43,546 nt of DNA, taken from positions 1-43,546 of the IMG/VR virus record IMGVR_UViG_3300037462_000196; one strand, written 5' to 3'. The position numbers and the translations under genes were made by a program. Below, one piece after another: positions 1 to 43,546 of the stretch; positions within the stretch are counted from its first letter, which is position 1; each line of letters opens with the position of its first letter. The stretch is from a virus. Its lineage: Duplodnaviria > Caudoviricetes. The notes under the pieces were generated by a model. It searched no databases and was not told the DNA's origin. It saw only the letters and a program-made list of their open reading frames with translations.

Positions 1-443
1 AGCGCCGTCAGCCCGGTCAGCCCGGCGAGCGGCGACACGTCGCTGATCTGGTTGCCCCCGAGGTAGAGCTCCGTCAGCCCGGTCAGCCCGGCGAGCGGCG
101 ACACGTCGCTGATCTGGTTGCCCCCGAGGTGGAGCGCCGTCAGTCCGGTCAGCCCGGCGAGCGGCGACACGTCGCTGATCTGGTTGCCCCCGAGGTAGAG
201 CACCGTCAGCCCGGTCAGCCCGGCGAGCGGCGACACGTCGCTGATCTGGTTGCCCCCGAGGTGGAGCACCGTCAGCCCGGTCAGCCCGGCGAGCGGCGAC
301 ACGTCGCTGATCTGGTTGCCTCCGAGGTAGAGCTCCGTCAGCCCGGTCAGCCCGGCGAGCGGCGACACGTCGCTGATCTGGTTGCCCCAGAGGTCGAGCG
401 AGCCGTCCACGATCATCGCCTGGTATTCTGCAGTCGTTCTCAT
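1..443 (-). CDS. Internalin-type LRR protein, N-terminal part (runs off the contig end)
   Basis: Read manually: ATG at 443 after AGAGAGG RBS; MRTTAEYQAMIVDGSLDLWGNQISDVSP, then LAGLTGLTxLxLGGNQISDVSP repeats (ELY, VLH, VLY, ALH, ELY, AL-); no stop before base 1. Confidence 0.9.
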   Translation of the reverse strand, partial: MRTTAEYQAMIVDGSLDLWGNQISDVSPLAGLTGLTELYLGGNQISDVSPLAGLTGLTVLHLGGNQISDVSPLAGLTGLTVLYLGGNQISDVSPLAGLTGLTALHLGGNQISDVSPLAGLTGLTELYLGGNQISDVSPLAGLTGLTA

Positions 444-502
444 TTGATTTCCTCTCTGGCGTTCGGGATGCCGGCCCCGCAGGGCCGGGCACCGGAGCGT
501 CA
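444..502 (-). repeat. Intergenic repeat family B, copy 1 (stop, hairpin, RBS)
   Basis: Identical to 1019-1077; partial copies at 2813-2837 and 42991-43044; on the minus strand TGA-CGCTCCGGTGCCCGGCCCTGCGGGGCCGGCATCCCGAACGCCAGAGAGGAAATCAA-ATG. Confidence 0.92.
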
Positions 503-1018
503 CGCAAAGATTTCCGCGCTCGGCAGCGCTCGCCGCAGAGACGAAACGTCGCTGATCTGGTTGCGCCCGAGGTCAAGCATCGTCAGCTTGGTCAGCCCGG
601 CGAGCGGCGACACGTCGCTGATCTGGTTGCCCCCGAGGTCGAGCGTCGTCAGCTCGGTCAGCCCGACGAGCGGCGACACGTCGCTGATCTGGTTGCCCCA
701 GAGGTCGAGCGCCGTCAGCCCGGTCAGCCCGGCGAGCGGCGACACGTCGCTGATCTGGTTGCGCCCGAGGTAGAGCTCCGTCAGCCCGGTCAGCCCGGCG
801 AGCGGCGACACGTCGCTGATCTGGTTGCCCCCGAGGTAGAGCACCGTCAGCCCGGTCAGCCCGGCGAGCGGCGACACGTCGCTGATCTGGTTGCCCCCGA
901 GGTAGAGCTCCGTCAGCCCGGTCAGCCCGGCGAGCGGCGACACGTCGCCGATCTGGTTGTCCCAGAGGTCGAGCGAGCCGTCCACGATCATCGCCTGGTA
1001 TTCTGCAGTCGTTCTCAT
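500..1018 (-). CDS. Internalin-type LRR protein (172 aa: N-cap, 6 LRRs, C-cap)
   Basis: ATG at 1018 with the same RBS and N-cap as the gene at 443; LxxLxxLxxLxLxxNxIxDVxP repeats; ends LRRALPSAEIFA. Confidence 0.93.
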   Translation of the reverse strand: MRTTAEYQAMIVDGSLDLWDNQIGDVSPLAGLTGLTELYLGGNQISDVSPLAGLTGLTVLYLGGNQISDVSPLAGLTGLTELYLGRNQISDVSPLAGLTGLTALDLWGNQISDVSPLVGLTELTTLDLGGNQISDVSPLAGLTKLTMLDLGRNQISDVSSLRRALPSAEIFA

Positions 1019-1077
1019 TTGATTTCCTCTCTGGCGTTCGGGATGCCGGCCCCGCAGGGCCGGGCACCGGAGCGTCA
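1019..1077 (-). repeat. Intergenic repeat family B, copy 2
   Basis: 59-bp exact match to 444-502. Confidence 0.92.
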
Positions 1078-1380
1078 GTGACTCTTCGGCGTCTCGGGCT
1101 CGTCGTCCTTCGGCGGGCAGTCTTTCGGATCGTCGCCAGGGTCTTCGCCGTCGTCGTCGTCGTCCGGGTCTTCGTCGTCGTCCGGCACCTCGCGAGCGGC
1201 GCGGGGGCCACTGCTGGGCATCCACCGGCCGCAGTTCGGGTCGATCTTCTGCCAGGCAGTGCCGGCCGTTCCGGCGATGGGGATGACGACGCAGCCGTCG
1301 ATCACGGCGGTCTCCATGGTGGCGCTCGCGGCGCTGGCGGTGCCGAGCAACAGCGCGGCGGTCAGGGTCAGGCGTTTCAT
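1075..1380 (-). CDS. Small secreted protein with Cys pair and acidic tail (101 aa)
   Basis: AGGAG RBS; MKRLTLTAALLLGTASAASA signal peptide; D/E-rich C-terminus; paralogous architecture to 2893-3198. Confidence 0.8.
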   Translation of the reverse strand: MKRLTLTAALLLGTASAASATMETAVIDGCVVIPIAGTAGTAWQKIDPNCGRWMPSSGPRAAREVPDDDEDPDDDDDGEDPGDDPKDCPPKDDEPETPKSH

Positions 1381-1430
1381 TCTGTCAGTCTCCTGTGAGT
1401 GGTGGTTGGTGGGCGCCCCCGCCCAGGTCA
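1381..1430 (-). repeat. Intergenic repeat family A, copy 1
   Basis: 1388-1427 matches 2120-2159 at 38/40; related to 3199-3259; contains GGGCGGGGGCGCCC hairpin and AGGAGAC RBS. Confidence 0.9.
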
Positions 1431-2114
1431 GTAACTTGTCGGGGTGTCCGCGAACGCCTCCCCAACGCGCCGGTCGAAGTCGGCCCACGCGGCGGCCGTC
1501 GTGGCGGCCCACGCCGCGTCCATCGCGGCCCTCGCGGAGGCCCGCGAGGCGGCCCACGTGGCGGCCCCCGTGGCGCTCGTCGCGGCCCACGTGGCGTCCA
1601 TCGCGGCGGCCCTCGCGGCGGCCCTCGCGGCGTCCCGCGCGGCGTCCATCGCGGAGGCCCGCGCGGCGTCCATCGTGGCGTCCATCGCGGCGATCACGCT
1701 GGCGTCCATCGCGGAGGCCCGCGCGGCGTCCCGCAAGCCGTCGTCCAGTGTGGTCAGGTACTCCCGCACCACGTCCGGCATCGGCGCTTGCCAAAGGTGT
1801 TCAACGGTAAGCGCCTGGCTGGCCGCGAACCGGCGGAGCAATTGCGTCGCGTCGATGCTGGCCAGGATGGTGCGGCGGCGGCAGACGAGCTTGTCGGCTT
1901 CCTCGTCCACGATTTCCTCGCAACGGACGCGGTGCAGGATTGGTCCCGGCGCGTGAACCAGGGCGTCCGCCGGTCGGATGCTCGCGTGCAGACCCGCCTT
2001 GCAGATCACCACCCTCCCATCGTGCACCAGCGTTTCGCCGATGGGAGGGATCGGGCGGCCGTCGCGCAGGGTGTTGCCGGTGAAGTGCCAGGCGGTCAGG
2101 GTCAGGTGCTTCAT
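1428..2114 (-). CDS. Phage protein with GLHAS-type N-domain (DUF7666-like) and AARDA/AAWA Ala-rich repeats
   Basis: ATG at 2114 after AGGAG; CKAGLHAS...DAL...DKLVCRRRTIL motif; 12-bp repeats ~1490-1730. Confidence 0.8.
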   Translation of the reverse strand: MKHLTLTAWHFTGNTLRDGRPIPPIGETLVHDGRVVICKAGLHASIRPADALVHAPGPILHRVRCEEIVDEEADKLVCRRRTILASIDATQLLRRFAASQALTVEHLWQAPMPDVVREYLTTLDDGLRDAARASAMDASVIAAMDATMDAARASAMDAARDAARAAARAAAMDATWAATSATGAATWAASRASARAAMDAAWAATTAAAWADFDRRVGEAFADTPTSY

Positions 2115-2163
2115 CGGTGGTCTCCTGTGAGTGGTGGTTGATGGGAGCCCCCGCCCAGGGTCA
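2115..2163 (-). repeat. Intergenic repeat family A, copy 2
   Basis: 38/40 identity to 1388-1427. Confidence 0.9.
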
Positions 2164-2439
2164 GCCATAGCCGTCGCCGGAGCCGTAGCCGGAGCCGTCG
2201 CCGGAGCCATAGCCGGAGCCGTAGCCGGAGCCGTCGCCGAAGCCGTCGCCGGAGCCGGAGCCGTAGCCGGAGCCGTCGCCGAAGCCGTCGCCGGAGCCGG
2301 AGCCGTAGCCGGAGCCGTCGCCGGAGCCATCGCCGGAGCCATCGCCGTAGCCGTCGCCGTGACCGGAGCCGGAGCCGTAGCCGTAGCCGGAGCCGTCGCC
2401 GGAGCCGGAGCCGTCGCTTTCGTAGCCCTCGAACATCAC
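2161..2439 (-). CDS. Gly-Ser-Asp-Tyr repeat protein (GSGDG/GSGYG)n
   Basis: Start overlaps the upstream stop; 6/12-bp tandem repeats; this type of gene typically follows DUF6948-like genes in phages. Confidence 0.75.
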   Translation of the reverse strand: MMFEGYESDGSGSGDGSGYGYGSGSGHGDGYGDGSGDGSGDGSGYGSGSGDGFGDGSGYGSGSGDGFGDGSGYGSGYGSGDGSGYGSGDGYG

Positions 2440-2720
2440 GCGACCTCGATGCTGGAAATTGCGGCAGCCGAAGCCGGTATGATCTCAAGCGCGTCCAGCA
2501 GGACGATCTCAGGGAGGACGGGTTCGATCACGCTGCGCTTCGCGTCGATGCCGGTCAGCGCCACGGCGCTCAGGCTCACGCCCCTGTCCGTGCCACCAGT
2601 GTGCCAGCGCCACAGGCGACGGCTGTCCGCCAGCGTGACTTGGCGCCCGTCGTGCGCCGTCACCGTCCCGTAATGGACCCCGCTCGCGTAGCAGCGAACG
2701 ATACATTTCTTGCCAATCAT
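2436..2720 (-). CDS. DUF6948-like phage protein
   Basis: IGKKCIVRCYASGVHYG...RRLWRW...SLSAVA motif; AAGGAG RBS. Confidence 0.8.
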   Translation of the reverse strand: MIGKKCIVRCYASGVHYGTVTAHDGRQVTLADSRRLWRWHTGGTDRGVSLSAVALTGIDAKRSVIEPVLPEIVLLDALEIIPASAAAISSIEVA

Positions 2721-2892: not shown

Positions 2893-3198
2893 TCAGCAGC
2901 CGCGAGCGGTCTTGCACGAGGGCGGCGGCTCGTCGCCGTGGTCTTCTTCCTCGCCGCCCTCTTCGTCGCCCTCATCCTCATCCTCCGGCTCTTCGGCGAC
3001 CGGGCGCGGGCCGTTGCCAGCGTGCGCATTCAGGAACTGGCACTGCGGCAGGGTCACATCGCTCCGGAAGAAGGCGTTGCTGCCGTCGATCTGCGTAAGC
3101 GGGCAGTCGCGCAGCAGGACCGTCTCGGTGGCGTCGCCCGCGGCGAACGCTGAGGTCGTGGCCATCAGCAGGGCGGCAAGAGTCGTCAGGGTCTTCAT
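2893..3198 (-). CDS. Small secreted protein with Cys residues and acidic tail (101 aa)
   Basis: AAGGAG RBS; MKTLTTLAALLMATTSAFA signal peptide; EEPEDEDEGDEEGGEEED tail. Confidence 0.8.
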   Translation of the reverse strand: MKTLTTLAALLMATTSAFAAGDATETVLLRDCPLTQIDGSNAFFRSDVTLPQCQFLNAHAGNGPRPVAEEPEDEDEGDEEGGEEEDHGDEPPPSCKTARGC

Positions 3199-3259
3199 GT
3201 CTCAGTCTCCTTGGGTTTGGTTGGTGGGTTGAGTGGTGGGCGCCCCCGCCCGGTGGTCA
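3199..3259 (-). repeat. Intergenic repeat family A, copy 3 (diverged)
   Basis: Shares TCAGTCTCCT, TGAGTGGTGG and GGTGGGCGCCCCCGCCC (plus strand) with copy 1. Confidence 0.8.
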
Positions 3260-3442
3260 GAAGGGTCCTTGGAGTGCGCAGCTCGCGGCGAGGGCGAGCG
3301 TGACGGCGAAGCCGGCGCCGACCGTCAGAAGCCAGGGCAGCCGGAAGTCGAGCCGCCGGCCCCTGTCGATCTCGTCCTGCGGGCGCAGCGGCGGGAACTG
3401 GTGGTAGGTGCGGCCGGGCGGCGGATCGTCGGGGCGGGTCAT
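3257..3442 (-). CDS. Small membrane protein
   Basis: 61 aa; ATGA overlap with the upstream gene; C-terminal hydrophobic helix. Confidence 0.65.
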   Translation of the reverse strand: MTRPDDPPPGRTYHQFPPLRPQDEIDRGRRLDFRLPWLLTVGAGFAVTLALAASCALQGPF

Positions 3443-3847: not shown

Positions 3848-3902
3848 CCAATAGTCCACAAAAAGTGGACTGTCAAGCGGTGTGGTCCAAAAAAAATGGA
3901 CC
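3848..3902 (-). promoter_or_regulatory. PL-like promoter with two repressor operators
   Basis: Minus strand TTGACA(3876-3871)-17 bp-TATTGG; palindromes AGTCCAC-N5-GTGGACT (3853-3871) and GGTCCA-N7-TGGACC (3884-3902). Confidence 0.85.
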
Positions 3903-3918
3903 GCCACAATGGCGGTCC
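3889..3918 (-). terminator. Rho-independent terminator of the repressor-lipoprotein transcript
   Basis: Minus strand GGACCGCCA-TTG-TGGCGGTCC followed by ATTTTTTTT. Confidence 0.8.
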
Positions 3919-3944: not shown

Positions 3945-4298
3945 TCAGGCCGGGCAGTTCACGGCGGCCGTGCTGTAGCCGTAGGGATTGTGACTGATCG
4001 ATAGAGGATCTGCGGGGCAACCCGCAACCTGTTCGATCGCGCGAATGTGACGGGCGCTCGCCGCCGCATCCGTGGACCCAACGCCTTGGCCTGAGAGGTG
4101 GCGGGCGAAGTAGGAGTTCCTCCCTGCAACCTTCTCGACTGACACAAGGTAGCCGTCGAGTCGGACAGTCTGACTGGGCTCGGTCTCGAACGAGTCGCAG
4201 GACGCTATGCAAGTCAAAGTGAAAACTGTCGCCGCGATGCGCCGGCGTCGAAGCCGCCTTCGGTCTTCGCGGGATACCACAAGGTTGTTGTCACACAT
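3945..4298 (-). CDS. Putative lipoprotein in the immunity operon
   Basis: AAGGAG RBS; basic N-region, hydrophobic stretch, lipobox-like IASC; downstream of the repressor. Confidence 0.7.
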   Translation of the reverse strand: MCDNNLVVSREDRRRLRRRRIAATVFTLTCIASCDSFETEPSQTVRLDGYLVSVEKVAGRNSYFARHLSGQGVGSTDAAASARHIRAIEQVAGCPADPLSISHNPYGYSTAAVNCPA

Positions 4299-4407
4299 CG
4301 ACTTCTCCTTATTCTTGTGGTGCTGGATGGGGAGTCGTAACGGGAGTCACGGATGCGTCGCCTCATGTTTCAGATCGCGCGACTTTTGCGTCGCGCTGGC
4401 GTTGACC

Positions 4408-4740
4408 TTAACCTTGTCTTCGATCCCATTCACTGCTTGCGGCTGCGAGCGCAGAGAAAAGCCGCTCTTGAACGTCGCCAGGGAGTTGCGCGAAGTCCCC
4501 GTGAATGAGGAAGTTGAAGTCAATCCGATGCAGCCTGTAGAACCAGCGCATCACGTCGCGTGACGGGAAAGACCGTCCGACCTCCATGTTGGAGTATGCG
4601 GTCTTCCTGATGCCGACGGCCGCCGCTATGTCCTTCTGCGACGCCCCCGCCACGATGCGCGCAGCGCTAAGGCGGATCGCGCAAGCCTTGAGGCTGATAT
4701 CGCCGGTTCTAGCCAGGTGGTGGCGAGCGTCGATGTCCAT
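4408..4740 (-). CDS. XRE-family HTH repressor (CI-like, 110 aa, probably leaderless)
   Basis: RLSAARIVAGASQKDIAAAVGIRKTAYSNMEVGRSFP HTH; TATAAC 6 nt before the ATG; divergent from the Cro-like gene. Confidence 0.88.
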   Translation of the reverse strand: MDIDARHHLARTGDISLKACAIRLSAARIVAGASQKDIAAAVGIRKTAYSNMEVGRSFPSRDVMRWFYRLHRIDFNFLIHGDFAQLPGDVQERLFSALAAASSEWDRRQG

Positions 4741-4746
4741 GCCCGC

Positions 4747-4820
4747 GTTATAGCGCAGGTCCATTTTTCGTGGTTGCCTATCACATGGACCTTGCAAGTC
4801 CACAAATCGTGGACTATGAC
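4747..4820. promoter_or_regulatory. Divergent PRM/PR-like promoters and operators
   Basis: PR: TTGCAA(4792)-17 bp-TATGAC(4815); operator AGTCCAC-AAATC-GTGGACT 4797-4815; degenerate sites ~4758-4791; minus-strand TATAAC at 4752-4747. Confidence 0.82.
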
Positions 4821-4828
4821 TTCCGTCT

Positions 4829-5104
4829 ATGAGCACGGAAACCCTAGTAACCGCGTCGGGCATCTGCGACCTCCTGGGTCGCGGCGAGATGGCCGCAGCT
4901 CTCGGTGTGCGCAAGACAGCGATCTCCAATGCCGCAGTCGCGGGTCGCTTTCCGGCGAAGTGGTACGCTGTGATTGCCGATCTTTGCGCTGCAAAGGGCG
5001 CGAGTTGCCCGCGGGAACTGTTCGCATTCGTTTCGCCTGCGCCCTCGGATCCGGCGTTGGTCGGGGATGAAACCGTGGTGCCCGCCGAGGGTGACGCAGC
5101 GTGA
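4829..5104 (+). CDS. Cro-like HTH regulator
   Basis: ICDLLGRGEMAAALGVRKTAISNA...GRFPAKWY; position opposite the repressor. Confidence 0.85.
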   Translation: MSTETLVTASGICDLLGRGEMAAALGVRKTAISNAAVAGRFPAKWYAVIADLCAAKGASCPRELFAFVSPAPSDPALVGDETVVPAEGDAA

Positions 5105-5579
5105 TCGGTTGTGGCGCATCGCTTGTCCCTCGCTGCCCCGGTCTTCTGCCGGTGGACCGCTGCGAATGTGGCTTGCCTGGCGACAAAGGTGCGCTGGGCG
5201 GCGGATCGTTTCAATTCGGGAATTCCATACCCGCAGCATCGGGCCGGAGCCTGCTGCGGGTCGGTGGCGCGGTCAGGCGGCGCCACCCGGCGGGCGGCAG
5301 CGCGCAGCGCGCCGCCCGCCGCAACGAGTTGACCGGCGGCTATACCTCGGGCGGGGCGCAGGACCTGTCCGCAACCAAGCCGGGCCTGACGTCGGGAGCC
5401 GCCGGTGGCGCTTGCCATGGGAACGCCCGAAAGGCCCGGAACCTGCGCCCTGCCCGGGCGAGAGCGGGGGCCGCCCCGCAGGGTATCGGTTCTGCCTCGG
5501 CGGCGCGTCCTGTCCTGCGCCGCCGCACCTTCGCCCGTCCGCTGCCTGTGGCGCGGACGGGCGGCTTTCGGAATGCCCT

Positions 5580-5710
5580 GCGGGGATCGGCCACCTCCTC
5601 CCGGCCGGTCTGGCAGCGCGACGCCGGGCCGCGCCCGCACGGGATGCCCGGCACATCCTCCCTGTTGGACTGCCCGCCCGGGTCGCGCATGGCGCCCGGG
5701 CGGGGTTTTC
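5580..5710 (+). ncRNA. Putative cuckoo/alpha-r14/CcsR-like small RNA with anti-Shine-Dalgarno loops
   Basis: GATCGGCC-ACCTCCTCCC-GGCCGGTC stem-loop (5585-5610); second TCCTCCC loop (~5656); terminator-like hairpin 5673-5704 plus TTTT. Confidence 0.6.
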
Positions 5711-5723
5711 GTGGGGTCATGGC

Positions 5724-6704
5724 ATGAGCTTTGACGCAGAGACGGGCATCAGCGCGGCCCGCAACCTGAGGGTCACCGGCGCGATGCTGCGCGAGGCCGC
5801 CGCGGCCGGACGCAGCCTGTCGGACGCCGCCCGGGGCTGGGGGGTGCACGTGCAGACGGTGCGCGACGCCGAGGTGCGGTTTGGCGTGACGCTGGCGCGT
5901 CGGCGCGGCGGCCGTGACCCGATGGACGTGGACCGCGTGCGCGCGTTGTTCGAGGCGGGTGCCAGCGACGTTGCGATTGCGGCCGATCAGGGCGTGGCGC
6001 GGCAGTCGGTGGGGCGACTGCGGCGCGAACTGGGCTTGCGCCGCCCCGCCGCCGAGCCGGCCGGCGCGAAGACCTCCGAGGTCCTGCGACTGGCCGCCGA
6101 GGGGGTTCCGAACGCCGAGATTGCCCGGCGCGTCGGCCTGACGCTGAACTCTGTCAAGATGCGCCTGGCGGTGCGCGGCGGCCTGACGCGCGAGGTTCTG
6201 TTGGACGCCGCGGCGCGGGGGCTGACGCAGGCCGATCTGGCGCGCGAGCGGTGCGTCTCGCCCGCCTCGGTCAGCCAGGCCGTCCGGCGGCACGAGGTCA
6301 CGCTGGCGCGCCCGGGCAAGCTCTGCGACGTGTCGGATCGCGAGATCCTGCGGTTGCTGGATTCCGGCCTGTCGCTGCGTGCGATCGGGGGCCAATTGGG
6401 CGTTCACCACGAGTCGGTCAGGAACAGGATCGAGCGGATTCCGGTTCGGCAGCGTGAGGCGATCCTTCGGGAGCTCCGGGCCGGGCGGGGCAGCGTTCTG
6501 CGCGGCCGGCCGGGTGCGGGCGCCGCGCAGGGCGAGGCCGCCGCGCCGGAGGCAGGGCCCGCGCACCCGTTCTGGACGGCCGAGCGCGACGCGCTGGTGC
6601 TGAAATCGGCCGGCAGCTACGCCGGGCTGCGCAGCGTGGCCGAACTGCTGGGCCAGCCGTTCCCGCGCGTGCAGCAGCGCTGGCATCGGCTGAGGGCGGG
6701 CTGA
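5724..6704 (+). CDS. Multi-HTH DNA-binding protein (326 aa)
   Basis: About five tandem HTH-like units (GRSLSDAAR, GASDVAIAA, GVPNAEIAR, GLTQADLAR, GLSLRAIG). Confidence 0.8.
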   Translation: MSFDAETGISAARNLRVTGAMLREAAAAGRSLSDAARGWGVHVQTVRDAEVRFGVTLARRRGGRDPMDVDRVRALFEAGASDVAIAADQGVARQSVGRLRRELGLRRPAAEPAGAKTSEVLRLAAEGVPNAEIARRVGLTLNSVKMRLAVRGGLTREVLLDAAARGLTQADLARERCVSPASVSQAVRRHEVTLARPGKLCDVSDREILRLLDSGLSLRAIGGQLGVHHESVRNRIERIPVRQREAILRELRAGRGSVLRGRPGAGAAQGEAAAPEAGPAHPFWTAERDALVLKSAGSYAGLRSVAELLGQPFPRVQQRWHRLRAG

Positions 6705-35245: not shown

Positions 35246-36331
35246 TCATTGTTTTCCCGAACCCTTCCGGCGTTTTCCTGTGTTCCGGTCTTGTTCCGTT
35301 CCCATGACCGCTGCGCGCCGGCTTGCCTTCCTCGTATACCGCTCGATCTCGGCCAGGGTCGCGTGGCCCGTCCATGCGCCGATCTGGTGCGTCGTCGCGC
35401 CCGACTCGGCCAGCGCGATGGCCCGCGCCTTCCTGAGCCCGTGGCCGGTGCGGTCCGTCAGGCCGGCGGCCTGCGCTGCCTGTGACAGGTAGGACGCTGC
35501 GGCCTTCGTCGAGCGGGACTTGCCGTGCGCTGTGCTTAGGAAGGTCATGTGCCGCGGGATCGCCCCCAACGCCGCGTGCATCGCGGCCCGGTCGGCCGCC
35601 ATCCCTGCCGCGTAGGGCGGCAGCGGGCATGTCCAGGGCACGTAGCTCTGCCCGCCGGTCTTCCCCTGTCGGAACGTCAGCACGCCGTCGCCGTCGACCA
35701 TCCCCGGCCCGAGGCGGACGGCGTCGCTGATCCGCGCGCCGGTCCAGTGCATCAGTTCCATCATCGCGCGCTGCTGCGTCCCGACAGGCCAGCGGGCGCG
35801 GAACCGTTCAACCTCGTCGGGCGACCACGGCTCGTGCCCGTCCGTCCGGGGCGGGGCCGGCGGCTTGACGGTGGCGCTTGGGTCTTCCGCGATCAACTGC
35901 GCCTCGATCGCGGCCGCGCAGATCATCCGCCACGCCTTGCGCCGTTTCCGGGCAGCGTGGGGCGCCAGCGGGCGCAGGTCGTCGCGGATGTCGGCAGGGC
36001 GAAGGTCTGCGATCAGCGCGTCGTCAGCTTGTTCCAGGATCGCGTCGAACTCGGCCCGCATCGCGCGCCTGTAGGCTGGTGCCAGCATCTTGAACCTTGC
36101 CGAGCCGGCGGCCAGTGCAGCGGCCGCCGCTATGGTGCCGGCCCCGATGCGCCGCGGTATGACTGCGCCGCTCGTGGCGCGCGCGTAGGCGGCCAGAAAC
36201 TCAGGGTGGTCGAACGGCAGGTCAGGAAGTCGCACCCGCGGTGGCGTGGCGGTGTAGACGTAACGCCGCCCGCGCGCGTGGACGATCTTGACACGCAGAG
36301 TCACCGTGGCCGCCCGAATCTGCCGGCGCAT
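35246..36331 (-). CDS. int: Tyrosine integrase
   Basis: TGARISD, KT, HGLRK, GHATLAEIERY catalytic residues. Confidence 0.95.
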   Translation of the reverse strand: MRRQIRAATVTLRVKIVHARGRRYVYTATPPRVRLPDLPFDHPEFLAAYARATSGAVIPRRIGAGTIAAAAALAAGSARFKMLAPAYRRAMRAEFDAILEQADDALIADLRPADIRDDLRPLAPHAARKRRKAWRMICAAAIEAQLIAEDPSATVKPPAPPRTDGHEPWSPDEVERFRARWPVGTQQRAMMELMHWTGARISDAVRLGPGMVDGDGVLTFRQGKTGGQSYVPWTCPLPPYAAGMAADRAAMHAALGAIPRHMTFLSTAHGKSRSTKAAASYLSQAAQAAGLTDRTGHGLRKARAIALAESGATTHQIGAWTGHATLAEIERYTRKASRRAAVMGTEQDRNTGKRRKGSGKQ

Positions 36332-41867: not shown

Positions 41868-42983
41868 TCAGTCCAGCAGCATGGGCATGAACACGTGCAG
41901 AAGCCGAGGGTCTTCCGTTGCGACCATGAGCGGGTGATTTGCGTCCTTGCCGCTCAAGCGAGCCGGATCGTGGCGGCCAAGGATGTCGCGGAGGTAGCGG
42001 GCTTTCAGGCTGAACCGTTCGCCTTGCCCGGGCTGGCCGGAGACCTCTGTCAGGTCGCCGTCGGCGGTCTTGACGGTCAGCTTTCCGGTTTCCGGGCTGA
42101 TGGCGATGGGTTCATCAAGATCGCAGAGCGCCGTGACCTGCTGTACCGCCGCGCGCGACACCGCGACCGAGATCGCGTCGCTGGGCGCAGGGATGACGCG
42201 AGTCCAGTCGGGATAGGTGCCGTCGATTATCTTGGTCGTGATCTGCGCGTCTCCGACCGTGAATGTCATCCGGTCTGGCCACGGCTCCGGGTCGGATGAC
42301 TTGTCTTTGCGACGCTCGCTCATGGCGAACTGAGCGCACACTAGGCGATTGCCGTCGCGCCGCAGAAGGCCAAGCAGAAGCTTGGCGGCCTTGGTGGGCA
42401 GGATCGCACCGGCCTGCATCGGCGCGATGCCAATCAGGTCGTATCTGGCAAGACGCCACCCGTCGGTCGCGACCGCGCAGCCCTTCATGGCGTCGAGATA
42501 CACGCCATTCAGGTAGTAGCGGGTTTCCTCGGTCGAGACGCATGGCAGGGTGTTGTGCAGAGCCGCCCAAAGGTCGGCCTCGGCCAGATCGAAGCCGTCA
42601 CCCTCTGCGCGCCGCATCACCGGGAATTCGGTGGACGGAAGGATCGAGCGCACCCGCTGCGTCATATCGGCGGCGGCAATGGTAAGGATTTCTGCTTGCC
42701 CCTCGCGCGACAGCGACAGCCGGACATCCCCCCTGTAGCCCGCGCAGGCCATTGCGAGGCGGCTGGGGGCAACGGCGATGTCTAGGTCGGCCTCGGCCGA
42801 GGCCGGAACCTCGGTTGCGATCTCGATGTCAAGATCGGTGGCGGTCACTGTCGCCACGTCTGCGCCAGCGGCGGCAGTCAGGCGCAGCATCCCGAGGATC
42901 GGAATAGGGTTGCGCCGCTCGATCGCGGCGGCGGCCGTGCGCAGGACGGGGGCGAGGTCGGTCGAGTGAATGGTGACGGTCAT
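41868..42983 (-). CDS. dnaN: DNA polymerase III beta sliding clamp homologue
   Basis: ERRNPIPIL, ATDLDI, STEETRYYLNGVYL, VATDGWRL, IDGTYPDWTRVIP, FMPM. Confidence 0.92.
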   Translation of the reverse strand: MTVTIHSTDLAPVLRTAAAAIERRNPIPILGMLRLTAAAGADVATVTATDLDIEIATEVPASAEADLDIAVAPSRLAMACAGYRGDVRLSLSREGQAEILTIAAADMTQRVRSILPSTEFPVMRRAEGDGFDLAEADLWAALHNTLPCVSTEETRYYLNGVYLDAMKGCAVATDGWRLARYDLIGIAPMQAGAILPTKAAKLLLGLLRRDGNRLVCAQFAMSERRKDKSSDPEPWPDRMTFTVGDAQITTKIIDGTYPDWTRVIPAPSDAISVAVSRAAVQQVTALCDLDEPIAISPETGKLTVKTADGDLTEVSGQPGQGERFSLKARYLRDILGRHDPARLSGKDANHPLMVATEDPRLLHVFMPMLLD

Positions 42984-43044
42984 CTTCGTATCCTCTCTGG
43001 CGTTCGGGAATGGGGCGGCGTATCGCCCCACAGTCGTAGCGTCA
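42984..43044 (-). repeat. Intergenic repeat family B, variant copy
   Basis: TCCTCTCTGGCGTTCGGGA (42991-43009) equals 450-468, and AGCGTCA is retained; the central hairpin has a different sequence. Confidence 0.8.
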
Positions 43045-43546
43045 CGGAAAGATTTGCGCATTCGGCAGCGCTAGCCGCAGCGGCGACACGTCGCTGATCT
43101 GGTTGTCCCCGAGGTAGAGCTCCGTCAGCCCGGTCAGTCCGGCGAGCGGCGACACGTCGCTGATCTGGTTGCCCCAGAGGTCGAGCTCCGTCAGCCCGGT
43201 CAGCCCGGCGAGCGGCGACACGTCGCTGATCTGGTTGCCCCAGAGGTAGAGCACCGTCAGCCCGGTCAGCCCGGCGAGCGGCGACACGTCGCTGATCTGG
43301 TTGCGCCCGAGCTGGAGCTTCGTCAGCCCAGTCAGCCCGACGAGCGGCGACACGTTGCTGATCTGGTTGCCCCCGAGGTCGAGCGTCGTCAGCCCGGTCA
43401 GTCCGGCGAGCGGCGACACGTCGCCGATCTGGTTGCCCCCGAGGTGGAGCGCCGTCAGTCCGGTCAGCCCGGCGAGCGGCGACACGTCGCTGATCTGGTT
43501 GCCCCCGAGGTAGAGCTCCGTCAGCCCGGTCAGCCCGGCGAGCGGC
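43042..43546 (-). CDS. Internalin-type LRR protein, C-terminal part (7 LRRs plus C-cap)
   Basis: Open to the contig end; repeats ELYLGG, ALHLGG, TLDLGG, KLQLGR, VLYLWG, ELDLWG, ELYLGD; ends LRLALPNAQIFP. Confidence 0.92.
   Translation of the reverse strand, partial: PLAGLTGLTELYLGGNQISDVSPLAGLTGLTALHLGGNQIGDVSPLAGLTGLTTLDLGGNQISNVSPLVGLTGLTKLQLGRNQISDVSPLAGLTGLTVLYLWGNQISDVSPLAGLTGLTELDLWGNQISDVSPLAGLTGLTELYLGDNQISDVSPLRLALPNAQIFP

What the first reader, a model, noticed from the sequence alone, without database searches (positions are those of the whole stretch)
1..1077. Tandem variable-LRR genes diversified at the predicted binding face: a candidate phage binder repertoire
Seen: at least two tandem genes (500-1018, and 443-1 apparently continuing at 43546-43042) are built from the same 66-bp module. 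The framework LAGLTGLT.L.L..NQISDVSP is almost invariant, even at synonymous sites. Amino-acid changes concentrate at X1-L-X2-L-X3-X4-N: X1 = E/V/A/T/M/K, X2 = Y/H/D/Q, X3 = G/W, X4 = G/R/D. About 18 complete modules show these residues in many combinations and orders. The genes share the N-cap and upstream 59-bp spacer, have related C-caps, and have no signal peptide. Established: in internalin/SDS22-type LRRs the xLxLxxN residues form the concave ligand-binding beta-sheet, the surface varied in lamprey VLRs. Inference: near-identical modules allow shuffling, expansion and gene conversion, giving a combinatorial set of cytoplasmic binders expressed early in infection, for example against host defence proteins.
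Basis: partly seen in the sequence, partly recalled or inferred. Interest (0 to 1): 0.88.

Follow-up and report, generated by a model that had tools for sequence, protein, structure and literature searches.

The report
Phage repeat proteins, variable binding face
A bacterial virus carries two side-by-side genes built from near-identical 66-base repeats that differ mainly at four predicted binding residues, so they likely encode fast-evolving protein binders, possibly aimed at host defences, but no target and no population of variants has been shown.

Summary
A complete 43.5-kb temperate phage, probably of a Rhodobacteraceae host, carries two tandem, signal-less, internalin/SDS22-type LRR genes in its leftward early arm: A (500-1018) and B/C (443-1, continuing 43546-43042). 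The 18 full modules are 93% identical, more than any of 152 comparison arrays. Amino-acid variation sits at four codons, and all 12 computed InlA/E-cadherin hot spots map to those four positions. Recombination between modules is supported. Diversifying selection is likely but borderline (pN/pS 5.2, above all 129 controls; count test p=0.054). Variation on the concave face is generic to LRR arrays (152 of 152). A second assembly, identical elsewhere, joins B to C but with 9 modules against at least 11, so module order is unresolved and population variants are unproven. No reverse transcriptase, RecT or donor cassettes were found, so this is not VLR- or DGR-like programmed diversification. It works like fungal 'high internal conservation' sensors and the Flavobacterium LRR locus. 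An unrelated phage shows the same design. The scan noted this gene on another assembly, and similar arrays in other phages. The target is unknown.

The parts
500..1018 (-). LRR gene A, complete, 172 aa: short helical N-cap, capped half-repeat, 6 modules (EYGG, VYGG, EYGR, ADWG, TDGG, MDGR), helix-strand C-cap; acidic (pI about 4)
   Evidence: PF12799 E=1e-56; pLDDT 95.3
1..443 (-). LRR gene B, 5' part: same N-cap as A, modules EYGG, VHGG, VYGG, AHGG, EYGG, then runs off the contig
43042..43546 (-). LRR gene B, 3' part (piece C): modules EYGG, AHGG, TDGG, KQGR, VYWG, EDWG, EYGD and C-cap
   Evidence: joined to the B N-cap in the second assembly L158
444..502 (-). 59-nt spacer before gene B (GC-rich hairpin plus purine-rich ribosome site); identical to 1019-1077
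   Evidence: one contig of run X1 spans 359-502 and one spans 473-618 with no differences
1019..1077 (-). 59-nt spacer before gene A; with the N-cap it forms the 117-nt direct repeat that delimits the duplicated gene unit
   Evidence: hairpin z = -2.3 for this copy, -1.1 for the other
42984..43041 (-). Related spacer before the sliding-clamp gene; shares an exact 18-mer with the two LRR spacers
   Evidence: (3 matches, 0.09 expected)
123..125 (-). X3 codon of module AHGG; one contig of run X1 reads a Trp codon here (depth 29.5), a combination absent from both assemblies
   Evidence: weak, single contig
41868..42983 (-). DNA polymerase sliding-clamp-like gene directly downstream of the LRR pair (context)
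   Evidence: phrog_947; PF00712, PF02767
4408..4740 (-). cI-like HTH repressor; a divergent cro-like ORF lies at 4829-5104 (+) (context: genetic switch)
   Evidence: (PF13560); the cro label is my inference from position and sequence
3898..3918 (-). Terminator-like hairpin separating the repressor unit from the leftward early arm (context)
   Evidence: consensus match only
35246..36331 (-). Tyrosine integrase at the end of the leftward arm (context: temperate phage)
   Evidence: 54.6% to Rhodobacter phage RcapNL

Best explanation
These are two tandem phage genes for stand-alone leucine-rich-repeat proteins whose repeats are likely kept near-identical by recombination, while four residues on the predicted binding face are likely kept different by selection, so that the proteins would bind a changing host cytoplasmic protein, possibly a defence component, early in infection. 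Steps: (1) shown: the 18 modules, the four variable codons, the duplicated spacer-plus-N-cap unit, and the place in the leftward arm between repressor and integrase. (2) Predicted: an internalin-type solenoid with its own caps, with X1 and X2 on the concave strand and X3 and X4 on the following loop. (3) Inferred, about 0.85: unequal crossing-over and gene conversion through the roughly 50-nt identical framework homogenise the modules, change their number and move X1-X4 cassettes within and between the two genes; the pair itself arose by duplication of the spacer-plus-gene unit. (4) Inferred, about 0.65: selection preserves variety at X1-X4. (5) Inferred, about 0.4: the ligand is a host defence or sensor protein, bound and blocked without catalysis. 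No dedicated diversifying enzyme is involved; the process is ordinary recombination acting on a repeat.
For: AlphaFold2 model pLDDT 95.3 with strands at X1-L-X2; best folds are InlA and the C. tepidum Roco LRR. All 12 of 12 InlA hot-spot residues listed in PMC3962206 (passages) fall on X1-X4 in the printed alignment (mapped by hand: 4 on X1, 3 on X2, 3 on X3, 2 on X4). Mean module identity is 0.934 against a maximum of 0.88 in 152 comparison arrays. pN at X1-X4 is 0.274 against pS 0.053; the ratio 5.2 exceeds all 129 bacterial control arrays. Exposed non-contact positions that vary freely in controls (mean mismatch 0.36-0.54) are nearly fixed here (pN 0.044; count test p=0.026). X variants occur in 1-5 modules, all other variants in 1-2. 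17 four-gamete failures. The same modules recur in A and B/C. An unrelated phage contig (L141/L126; RecT, ParB and HNH neighbours) has a signal-less LRR with 97% identical modules varying at X2 (Y/H/D) and X3 (G/Y). Five other phage-like records carry two or more LRR genes. The nearest cultured relatives share the layout but gave no LRR hit, so this is accessory cargo.
Against: The count test against synonymous sites is not significant (p=0.054 for four positions; p=0.21 for six a-priori concave positions). Modules are not independent samples, and GC3 of 0.94 in gene A may depress pS. Concave-face excess occurs in 152 of 152 comparison arrays, and pN(concave) exceeds pS in 29 of 32 arrays with identity of 0.78 or more, so this array is the far end of a general trend. 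9 of 129 controls match its X/exposed ratio. Only one run holds the phage, and the second assembly is identical over 42,568 nt, so no independent allele is in hand. There is no expression data, no ligand and no PADLOC match. Short-read assemblies of such arrays can omit or create repeats (bioRxiv 10.1101/2025.01.13.632504, Results section 5), which could inflate the recombination signal.
Confidence: 0.5

Rival explanations
1. Recent, largely neutral expansion of one captured LRR unit. The framework is uniform because the array is young, and X1-X4 differences are older variation or tolerated drift; the protein has a fixed target or none.
For: Count tests against synonymous sites are not significant. 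Concave-face variation is generic (152 of 152 arrays). The X2 residues Y/D/H are one base apart and are common at that position in controls (D 22%, Y 16%, H 5%). Neighbouring early genes also carry repetitive tracts.
Against: Neutral homogenisation should erase X1-X4 differences as it erased those at tolerant exposed positions; instead X variants are at intermediate counts and shared by both genes. The X/S ratio tops all 129 controls. Both frames are intact with complete caps.
Confidence: 0.2
2. The binders serve the lysogen or compete with other viruses: they recognise proteins of superinfecting phages, or act as detached decoy copies of bacterial LRR sensor domains such as those of Roco proteins and mask the ligand such sensors detect.
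For: The top sequence match among solved structures is the LRR domain of the C. tepidum Roco protein. The phage is temperate. [quoted passage not shown]
Against: There is no effector or nucleotide-binding domain in or beside the genes and no PADLOC hit. The genes lie downstream of a terminator-like site that separates them from the repressor unit. The presumed host bin has no other LRR_4 match, although that bin may be incomplete.
Confidence: 0.15
3. The proteins are released at lysis and act on a eukaryote (alga, protist grazer), as proposed for repeat proteins of symbiont phages (recalled: ankyrin phages of sponges, Wolbachia phage WO).
For: Closest folds include eukaryote-binding internalins. 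Prophage genes lasAI/lasAII of Liberibacter have near-identical repeats and act at the host interface (PMC3708911, passages).
Against: No signal peptide, anchor or translocator (inspection). The location among replication and early genes, not in a lysis or moron module, fits action inside the infected cell.
Confidence: 0.07
4. The tandem pair and the module mosaic are short-read assembly products of one shorter gene.
For: Both assemblies break or open at this locus and disagree on gene B from window position 202 onward. The second assembly lacks gene A. Chimeric repeats are documented for such arrays.
Against: An independent contig of run X1 joins A's unique C-cap to B's spacer with no differences at depth 48, against 54-72 for flanking single-copy contigs. 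The second assembly begins and ends inside the spacer repeat (81-nt overlap), which is where A would drop out. Piece C is identical in both assemblies over 502 nt, and B over 241 nt. A and C have distinct modules and caps. The artefact risk is high only for the middle of B/C.
Confidence: 0.05
5. Programmed diversification, as in lamprey VLR assembly or a diversity-generating retroelement.
For: The same surface is varied as in VLRs (PMC11878203, passages). X1, X2 and X4 codons could each derive from an adenine-rich codon.
Against: No RVT_1 or RecT match in the genome; no YxDD-like motif printed; no template repeat or silent cassettes elsewhere. Framework adenines are nearly invariant, and the two assemblies agree exactly on most modules.
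Confidence: 0.03

Closest known systems
Repeats with high internal conservation (HIC) in fungal HNWD NLRs (Podospora het-d, het-e, het-r; bioRxiv 10.1101/2025.01.13.632504, abstract, Introduction part 1 and Results section 5 read)
   Same: Near-identical repeats attributed to concerted evolution, variation at four codons on the interaction surface, and arrays that short reads cannot assemble.
   Different: Here the repeat is an LRR, not WD40; there is no NACHT or effector domain; it is on a phage; length polymorphism and allele-specific recognition are shown in fungi but not here.
Flavobacterium psychrophilum tandem LRR locus (PMC10392669, passages and section 6 read)
   Same: Tandem LRR genes with about 22-residue repeats, hypervariable positions on one face, conserved intergenic spacers, recombination without mobilome genes.
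   Different: That locus is chromosomal, has up to 19 genes with signal peptide and type 9 secretion signal, and contains gene fragments; this one is two signal-less genes in a phage early arm.
Listeria internalin A and B LRR domains (PDB 1o6s, 1d0b) and Chlorobium tepidum Roco LRR (PDB 5il7)
   Same: 22-residue SDS22-like repeat, about 50% identity, rmsd near 1 A; the variable positions coincide with InlA's contact residues.
   Different: No signal peptide, internalin cap, Ig-like or anchor domain, and no Roc-COR; the caps are minimal and the N-cap has no detected relative.
Liberibacter prophage genes lasAI/lasAII (hyvI/hyvII) (PMC3708911, passages read)
   Same: Two prophage-borne paralogues with near-identical tandem repeats described as LRR and variable in number.
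   Different: Those have 44-residue non-canonical repeats and were described as surface autotransporters; variation at defined contact codons is not reported in the passages seen.
Lamprey variable lymphocyte receptors (PMC11878203, passages read)
   Same: Specificity carried by variable residues of the concave LRR sheet.
   Different: VLRs are assembled somatically from germline cassettes; here two fixed genes with no cassette store or assembly enzyme.

Membership tests
SDS22-like / internalin-type LRR domain | 22-residue repeat with LxxLxLxxNxI core | tested here: met
   (PF12799 188 bits, cut-off 27)
SDS22-like / internalin-type LRR domain | Curved solenoid with parallel sheet on the concave side | tested here: met
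   prediction only: (TM 0.84-0.90 to InlA and InlB)
Internalin (Listeria family) | Signal peptide, N-terminal cap, Ig-like inter-repeat domain or wall anchor | tested here: not met
   172 aa, repeats start at residue 12; no such Pfam match; no hydrophobic N-terminal stretch
HIC (high internal conservation) binder | Repeats over 80% identical at DNA level | tested here: met
   93.4% mean; 0 of 152 comparison arrays reach 0.9
HIC (high internal conservation) binder | Few hypervariable codons on the interaction surface | tested here: met
   (12 of 12 InlA hot spots at X1-X4)
HIC (high internal conservation) binder | Diversifying selection at those codons | tested here: inconclusive
   pN/pS 5.2, but count test p=0.054 and p=0.21
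HIC (high internal conservation) binder | Repeat-number or order polymorphism in the population | tested here: inconclusive
   two assemblies differ (9 against at least 11 modules) and one extra module variant at depth 29.5; all may be assembly effects
NLR / Roco-type immune receptor | Nucleotide-binding and effector domains fused or adjacent | tested here: not met
VLR-like programmed assembly | Incomplete germline gene, store of silent cassettes, assembly enzyme | tested here: not met
   all modules lie in open frames with caps; no copies elsewhere
Diversity-generating retroelement | Reverse transcriptase and template repeat; adenine-specific change | tested here: not met
Phage anti-defence protein | Binds or disables a host defence system and rescues phage growth | not testable with these tools
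   needs pull-down and plaque assays
Phage early gene | Transcribed early in lytic growth | not testable with these tools
   position in the leftward arm only; no RNA run holds the stretch

The most novel reading that the evidence does not exclude
Temperate phages from unrelated lineages have repeatedly captured bacterial LRR domains, stripped them to cytoplasmic mini-binders and turned them into recombination-driven contingency loci. The array is then the one fast-changing spot in an otherwise clonal phage population and produces an antibody-like set of inhibitors that track polymorphic host defence proteins.
Probability: 0.2. Interest if true: 0.85.

Novelty: new variant of a known kind. Interest (0 to 1): 0.56.

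Why it matters
Known phage counter-defence proteins are mostly single, fixed sequences (recalled). A self-homogenising LRR array would give a phage a cheap way to change binding specificity by recombination, the viral counterpart of fungal HIC sensors. The proteins are small, fully capped and predicted with high confidence, so the question 'what does a phage LRR bind, and do alleles differ?' is directly testable. They are also natural, cysteine-free, self-capped scaffolds like engineered LRR binders. If the array proves fixed or targetless, it is an unusual accessory gene and no more.

Tried and rejected
No close independent relative was found. The sliding-clamp query gave 38 loci at 25-40% identity, none with an LRR. 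Two DNA patterns from the modules and the N-cap found 0 viral contigs. The DUF7666 neighbour gave 2 distant loci, which I did not examine. The N-cap region search found 3 proteins, which covered only 38-63% of the region. None of the four LRR sequences is in the clustered collection. The only GenBank 'phage' hits for gene A were 17 unannotated Listeria records, which I read as host contigs. L158 was first taken as a possible second allele; at 0 mismatches in 42,568 nt and with an opening in the spacer repeat it cannot count as independent, and it was left out of the controls. Contig depths fit gene A being in 0.4-0.9 of genomes depending on the depth assumed, so they decide nothing. Zero depth in two bins is not a finding. 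In one search, 5 of 33 arrays scored 0.9 or more; by eye 4 were wrong-frame or non-LRR repeats and only L286 (the same contig as L126) was kept. Long plus-strand ORFs over the array (for example 129-773) are antisense shadows of the repeat. No attB was found in the host bin. No Rfam family matched. No complex prediction was run because no partner is proposed.

Full report
What the window is. The window is a whole 43,546-base virus record, rated 100% complete and 'linear'. It has a gpA-type terminase, portal, ClpP-capsid fusion, glycoside-hydrolase-108 lysin, tyrosine integrase and an HTH repressor. The integrase is 54.6% identical to that of Rhodobacter phage RcapNL, and a matching contig was binned with a Rhodobacteraceae genome, so a Rhodobacteraceae host is likely but rests on binning and similarity. 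The best terminase matches (69.7%) are two records labelled as cyanophages. The layout is lambda-like: a repressor and a divergent cro-like gene near 4400-5100, a terminator-like site at 3898-3918, then a leftward run of small genes that passes through the LRR pair and a sliding-clamp gene to the integrase. By analogy with lambda's pL arm (recalled) this is an early lytic unit; no RNA run holds it.

The observation. Gene A (500-1018) is complete. Gene B starts at 443 and leaves the contig; piece 43546-43042 ends it. A and B share 117 identical bases of spacer and N-cap, and an 18-mer of the spacer recurs before the clamp gene (3 matches, 0.09 expected). This suggests duplication of a spacer-plus-gene unit.

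Is the arrangement real? The window's ends are 99% alike over 99 bases but do not overlap exactly. A second assembly, L158 (JALORM010000001.1, 42,821 bases), is identical to the window over 42,568 bases, so it is the same population, not a relative. It joins B's N-cap to C's C-cap in one 237-aa frame with 9 modules, agreeing with B for 241 bases and with C for 502. The window holds VYGG, AHGG and EYGG modules that L158 lacks, so B/C has at least 11 modules here. L158 has no gene A, but it begins and ends inside the spacer repeat (81-base overlap), where A would drop out. In the one public run that holds the phage, separate contigs cover 473-618 (A's C-cap into B's spacer, depth 48) and 359-502 (depth 105.5) without differences, against 54-72 for flanks. 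So two genes are real. One contig at depth 29.5 shows a Trp codon at 125, most simply an AHWG module found in neither assembly; it may fill the gap or be a second allele. Collapse of a two-module near-repeat explains L158 equally well as a short allele, and short reads are known to omit or create repeats in such arrays (bioRxiv 10.1101/2025.01.13.632504, Results section 5). Population variation is therefore neither shown nor excluded.

Structure. AlphaFold2 gives a confident solenoid (pLDDT 95.3) with an N-terminal helix, strands at X1-L-X2 and a helix-strand C-cap. The best structural matches are InlA and the Chlorobium Roco LRR; the best sequence match is the Roco LRR. PMC3962206 (passages) lists 12 computed hot spots on InlA for human E-cadherin. 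In the alignment printed, mapped by hand with the residue identity confirmed at each place, all 12 fall on X1 (R211, Y343, R365, W387), X2 (E170, K301, F367), X3 (F150, N259, Y347) or X4 (R85, F348). The variable codons are thus the ligand-contact positions of this fold. PMC11878203 (passages) states the same for VLRs. The proteins have no hydrophobic N-terminus and are strongly acidic.

Is the variation more than neutral? For: pN at X1-X4 is 0.274 against pS 0.053; the ratio 5.2 is higher than in all 129 arrays of four or more modules drawn from 80 metagenome and 76 genome loci. Exposed non-contact positions, which vary freely in controls, are nearly fixed (p=0.026), and X variants occur in more modules than other variants. 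Against: counting distinct alleles, 9 replacement changes at X against 7 synonymous changes gives p=0.054, and p=0.21 with six a-priori concave positions. Modules are not independent, and GC3 is 0.94. Excess variation on the concave face is seen in 152 of 152 comparison arrays, and the X/S ratio rises steadily with homogenisation (medians 0.99 to 2.46). This array is the extreme of a general trend: no comparison array reaches 0.9 identity (maximum 0.88). Recombination is indicated by 17 of 190 site pairs failing the four-gamete test, some only 5-6 bases apart, which needs short conversion tracts or recurrent mutation. X1-X4 remain partly linked (12 combinations, 14.7 expected, P=0.026). No reverse transcriptase, RecT or cassette store was found.

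Other phages. A pattern scan of IMG/VR gave 36 stretches, many from giant viruses. One unrelated 41-kb, GC-rich phage contig (L141/L126) has a signal-less LRR among RecT, resolvase, ParB and HNH genes. Its modules are 97% identical and vary at X2 (Y/H/D) and X3 (G/Y), and the contig also ends in the array at both ends. Records with two or more LRR genes include L122, L137 and L124/L147 (phage genes confirmed), a 189-kb provirus with four and L300 with five (context not checked); their modules are less uniform (0.5-0.88). The nearest cultured relatives share the layout and gave no LRR hit. These caps and frameworks differ from one another, which points to repeated capture of bacterial LRR genes; most bacterial homologues inspected are secreted or multi-domain.

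Mechanism. Most likely: a captured LRR unit was amplified and duplicated; recombination through the identical framework keeps modules uniform and reshuffles contact cassettes; selection retains different cassettes because the protein binds a variable partner inside the infected cell, possibly a defence protein. The fold and face are predicted with high confidence, recombination is well supported, selection is probable, and the target is a guess from gene position.

Comparison with what is known. It works like the HIC repeats of fungal HNWD sensors (Introduction part 1 read) and the F. psychrophilum LRR locus (PMC10392669, section 6 read). A prophage precedent for paired near-identical-repeat genes is Liberibacter lasAI/lasAII (PMC3708911, passages). 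It is not an internalin, NLR, VLR or DGR by their defining features. Seven searches, of which five were aimed at phage LRRs, listed no paper on stand-alone HIC-type LRRs in phage early regions; the library lacks most subscription journals, and I read no supplements. The scan's own unchecked notes describe this gene on another assembly and similar arrays in several other phages.

Verdict. Real, unusually clean, and repeated in unrelated phages, but a new setting for a known evolutionary design, with no target and no demonstrated repertoire. Interest 0.56.

Noticed in passing
window 1378-1440, 2112-2165, 3195-3260 (minus strand): A second family of intergenic spacers (short GC hairpin, C/A-rich stretch, ribosome site) repeats before three small early genes; part of the LRR spacer also recurs at 2813-2840.
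   Followed up: partly
window 1428-2114 and 2161-2720 (minus strand): Neighbouring early genes also carry tandem tracts: a DUF7666 protein with an Ala-rich 12-bp repeat and a DUF6948 gene followed by a Gly-Ser-Asp-Tyr repeat ORF.
   Followed up: no
window 41868-42983 (minus strand): Phage-encoded sliding-clamp homologue with no close relative among 38 viral loci (best segments 25-40% identity).
   Followed up: partly
window 3945-4298 (minus strand): ORF downstream of the repressor with a lipoprotein-like hydrophobic stretch and cysteine; a candidate superinfection-exclusion gene, no family match.
   Followed up: no
L137:4511-5395: A phage gene fusing a phrog_98 domain to an LRR array, directly after a stand-alone paralogue with the same cap.
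   Followed up: partly
L141:3863-4155 and L126:1-316: Unrelated phage with a 97%-identical 66-bp LRR array that also breaks the assembly; worth its own long-read check.
   Followed up: partly
L394 (PP438413.1): A record labelled Nostoc phage has a terminase 69.7% identical to this phage's and the same layout, which raises the question whether its true host is a heterotrophic alphaproteobacterium.
   Followed up: no
H5-H21 in the phage collection: Seventeen unannotated 'Listeria phage' records carry 1-13 internalin-like matches each and look like host chromosome contigs.
   Followed up: no
window 5340-6704 (plus strand): A protein with several tandem helix-turn-helix motifs lies in the rightward early arm.
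   Followed up: no
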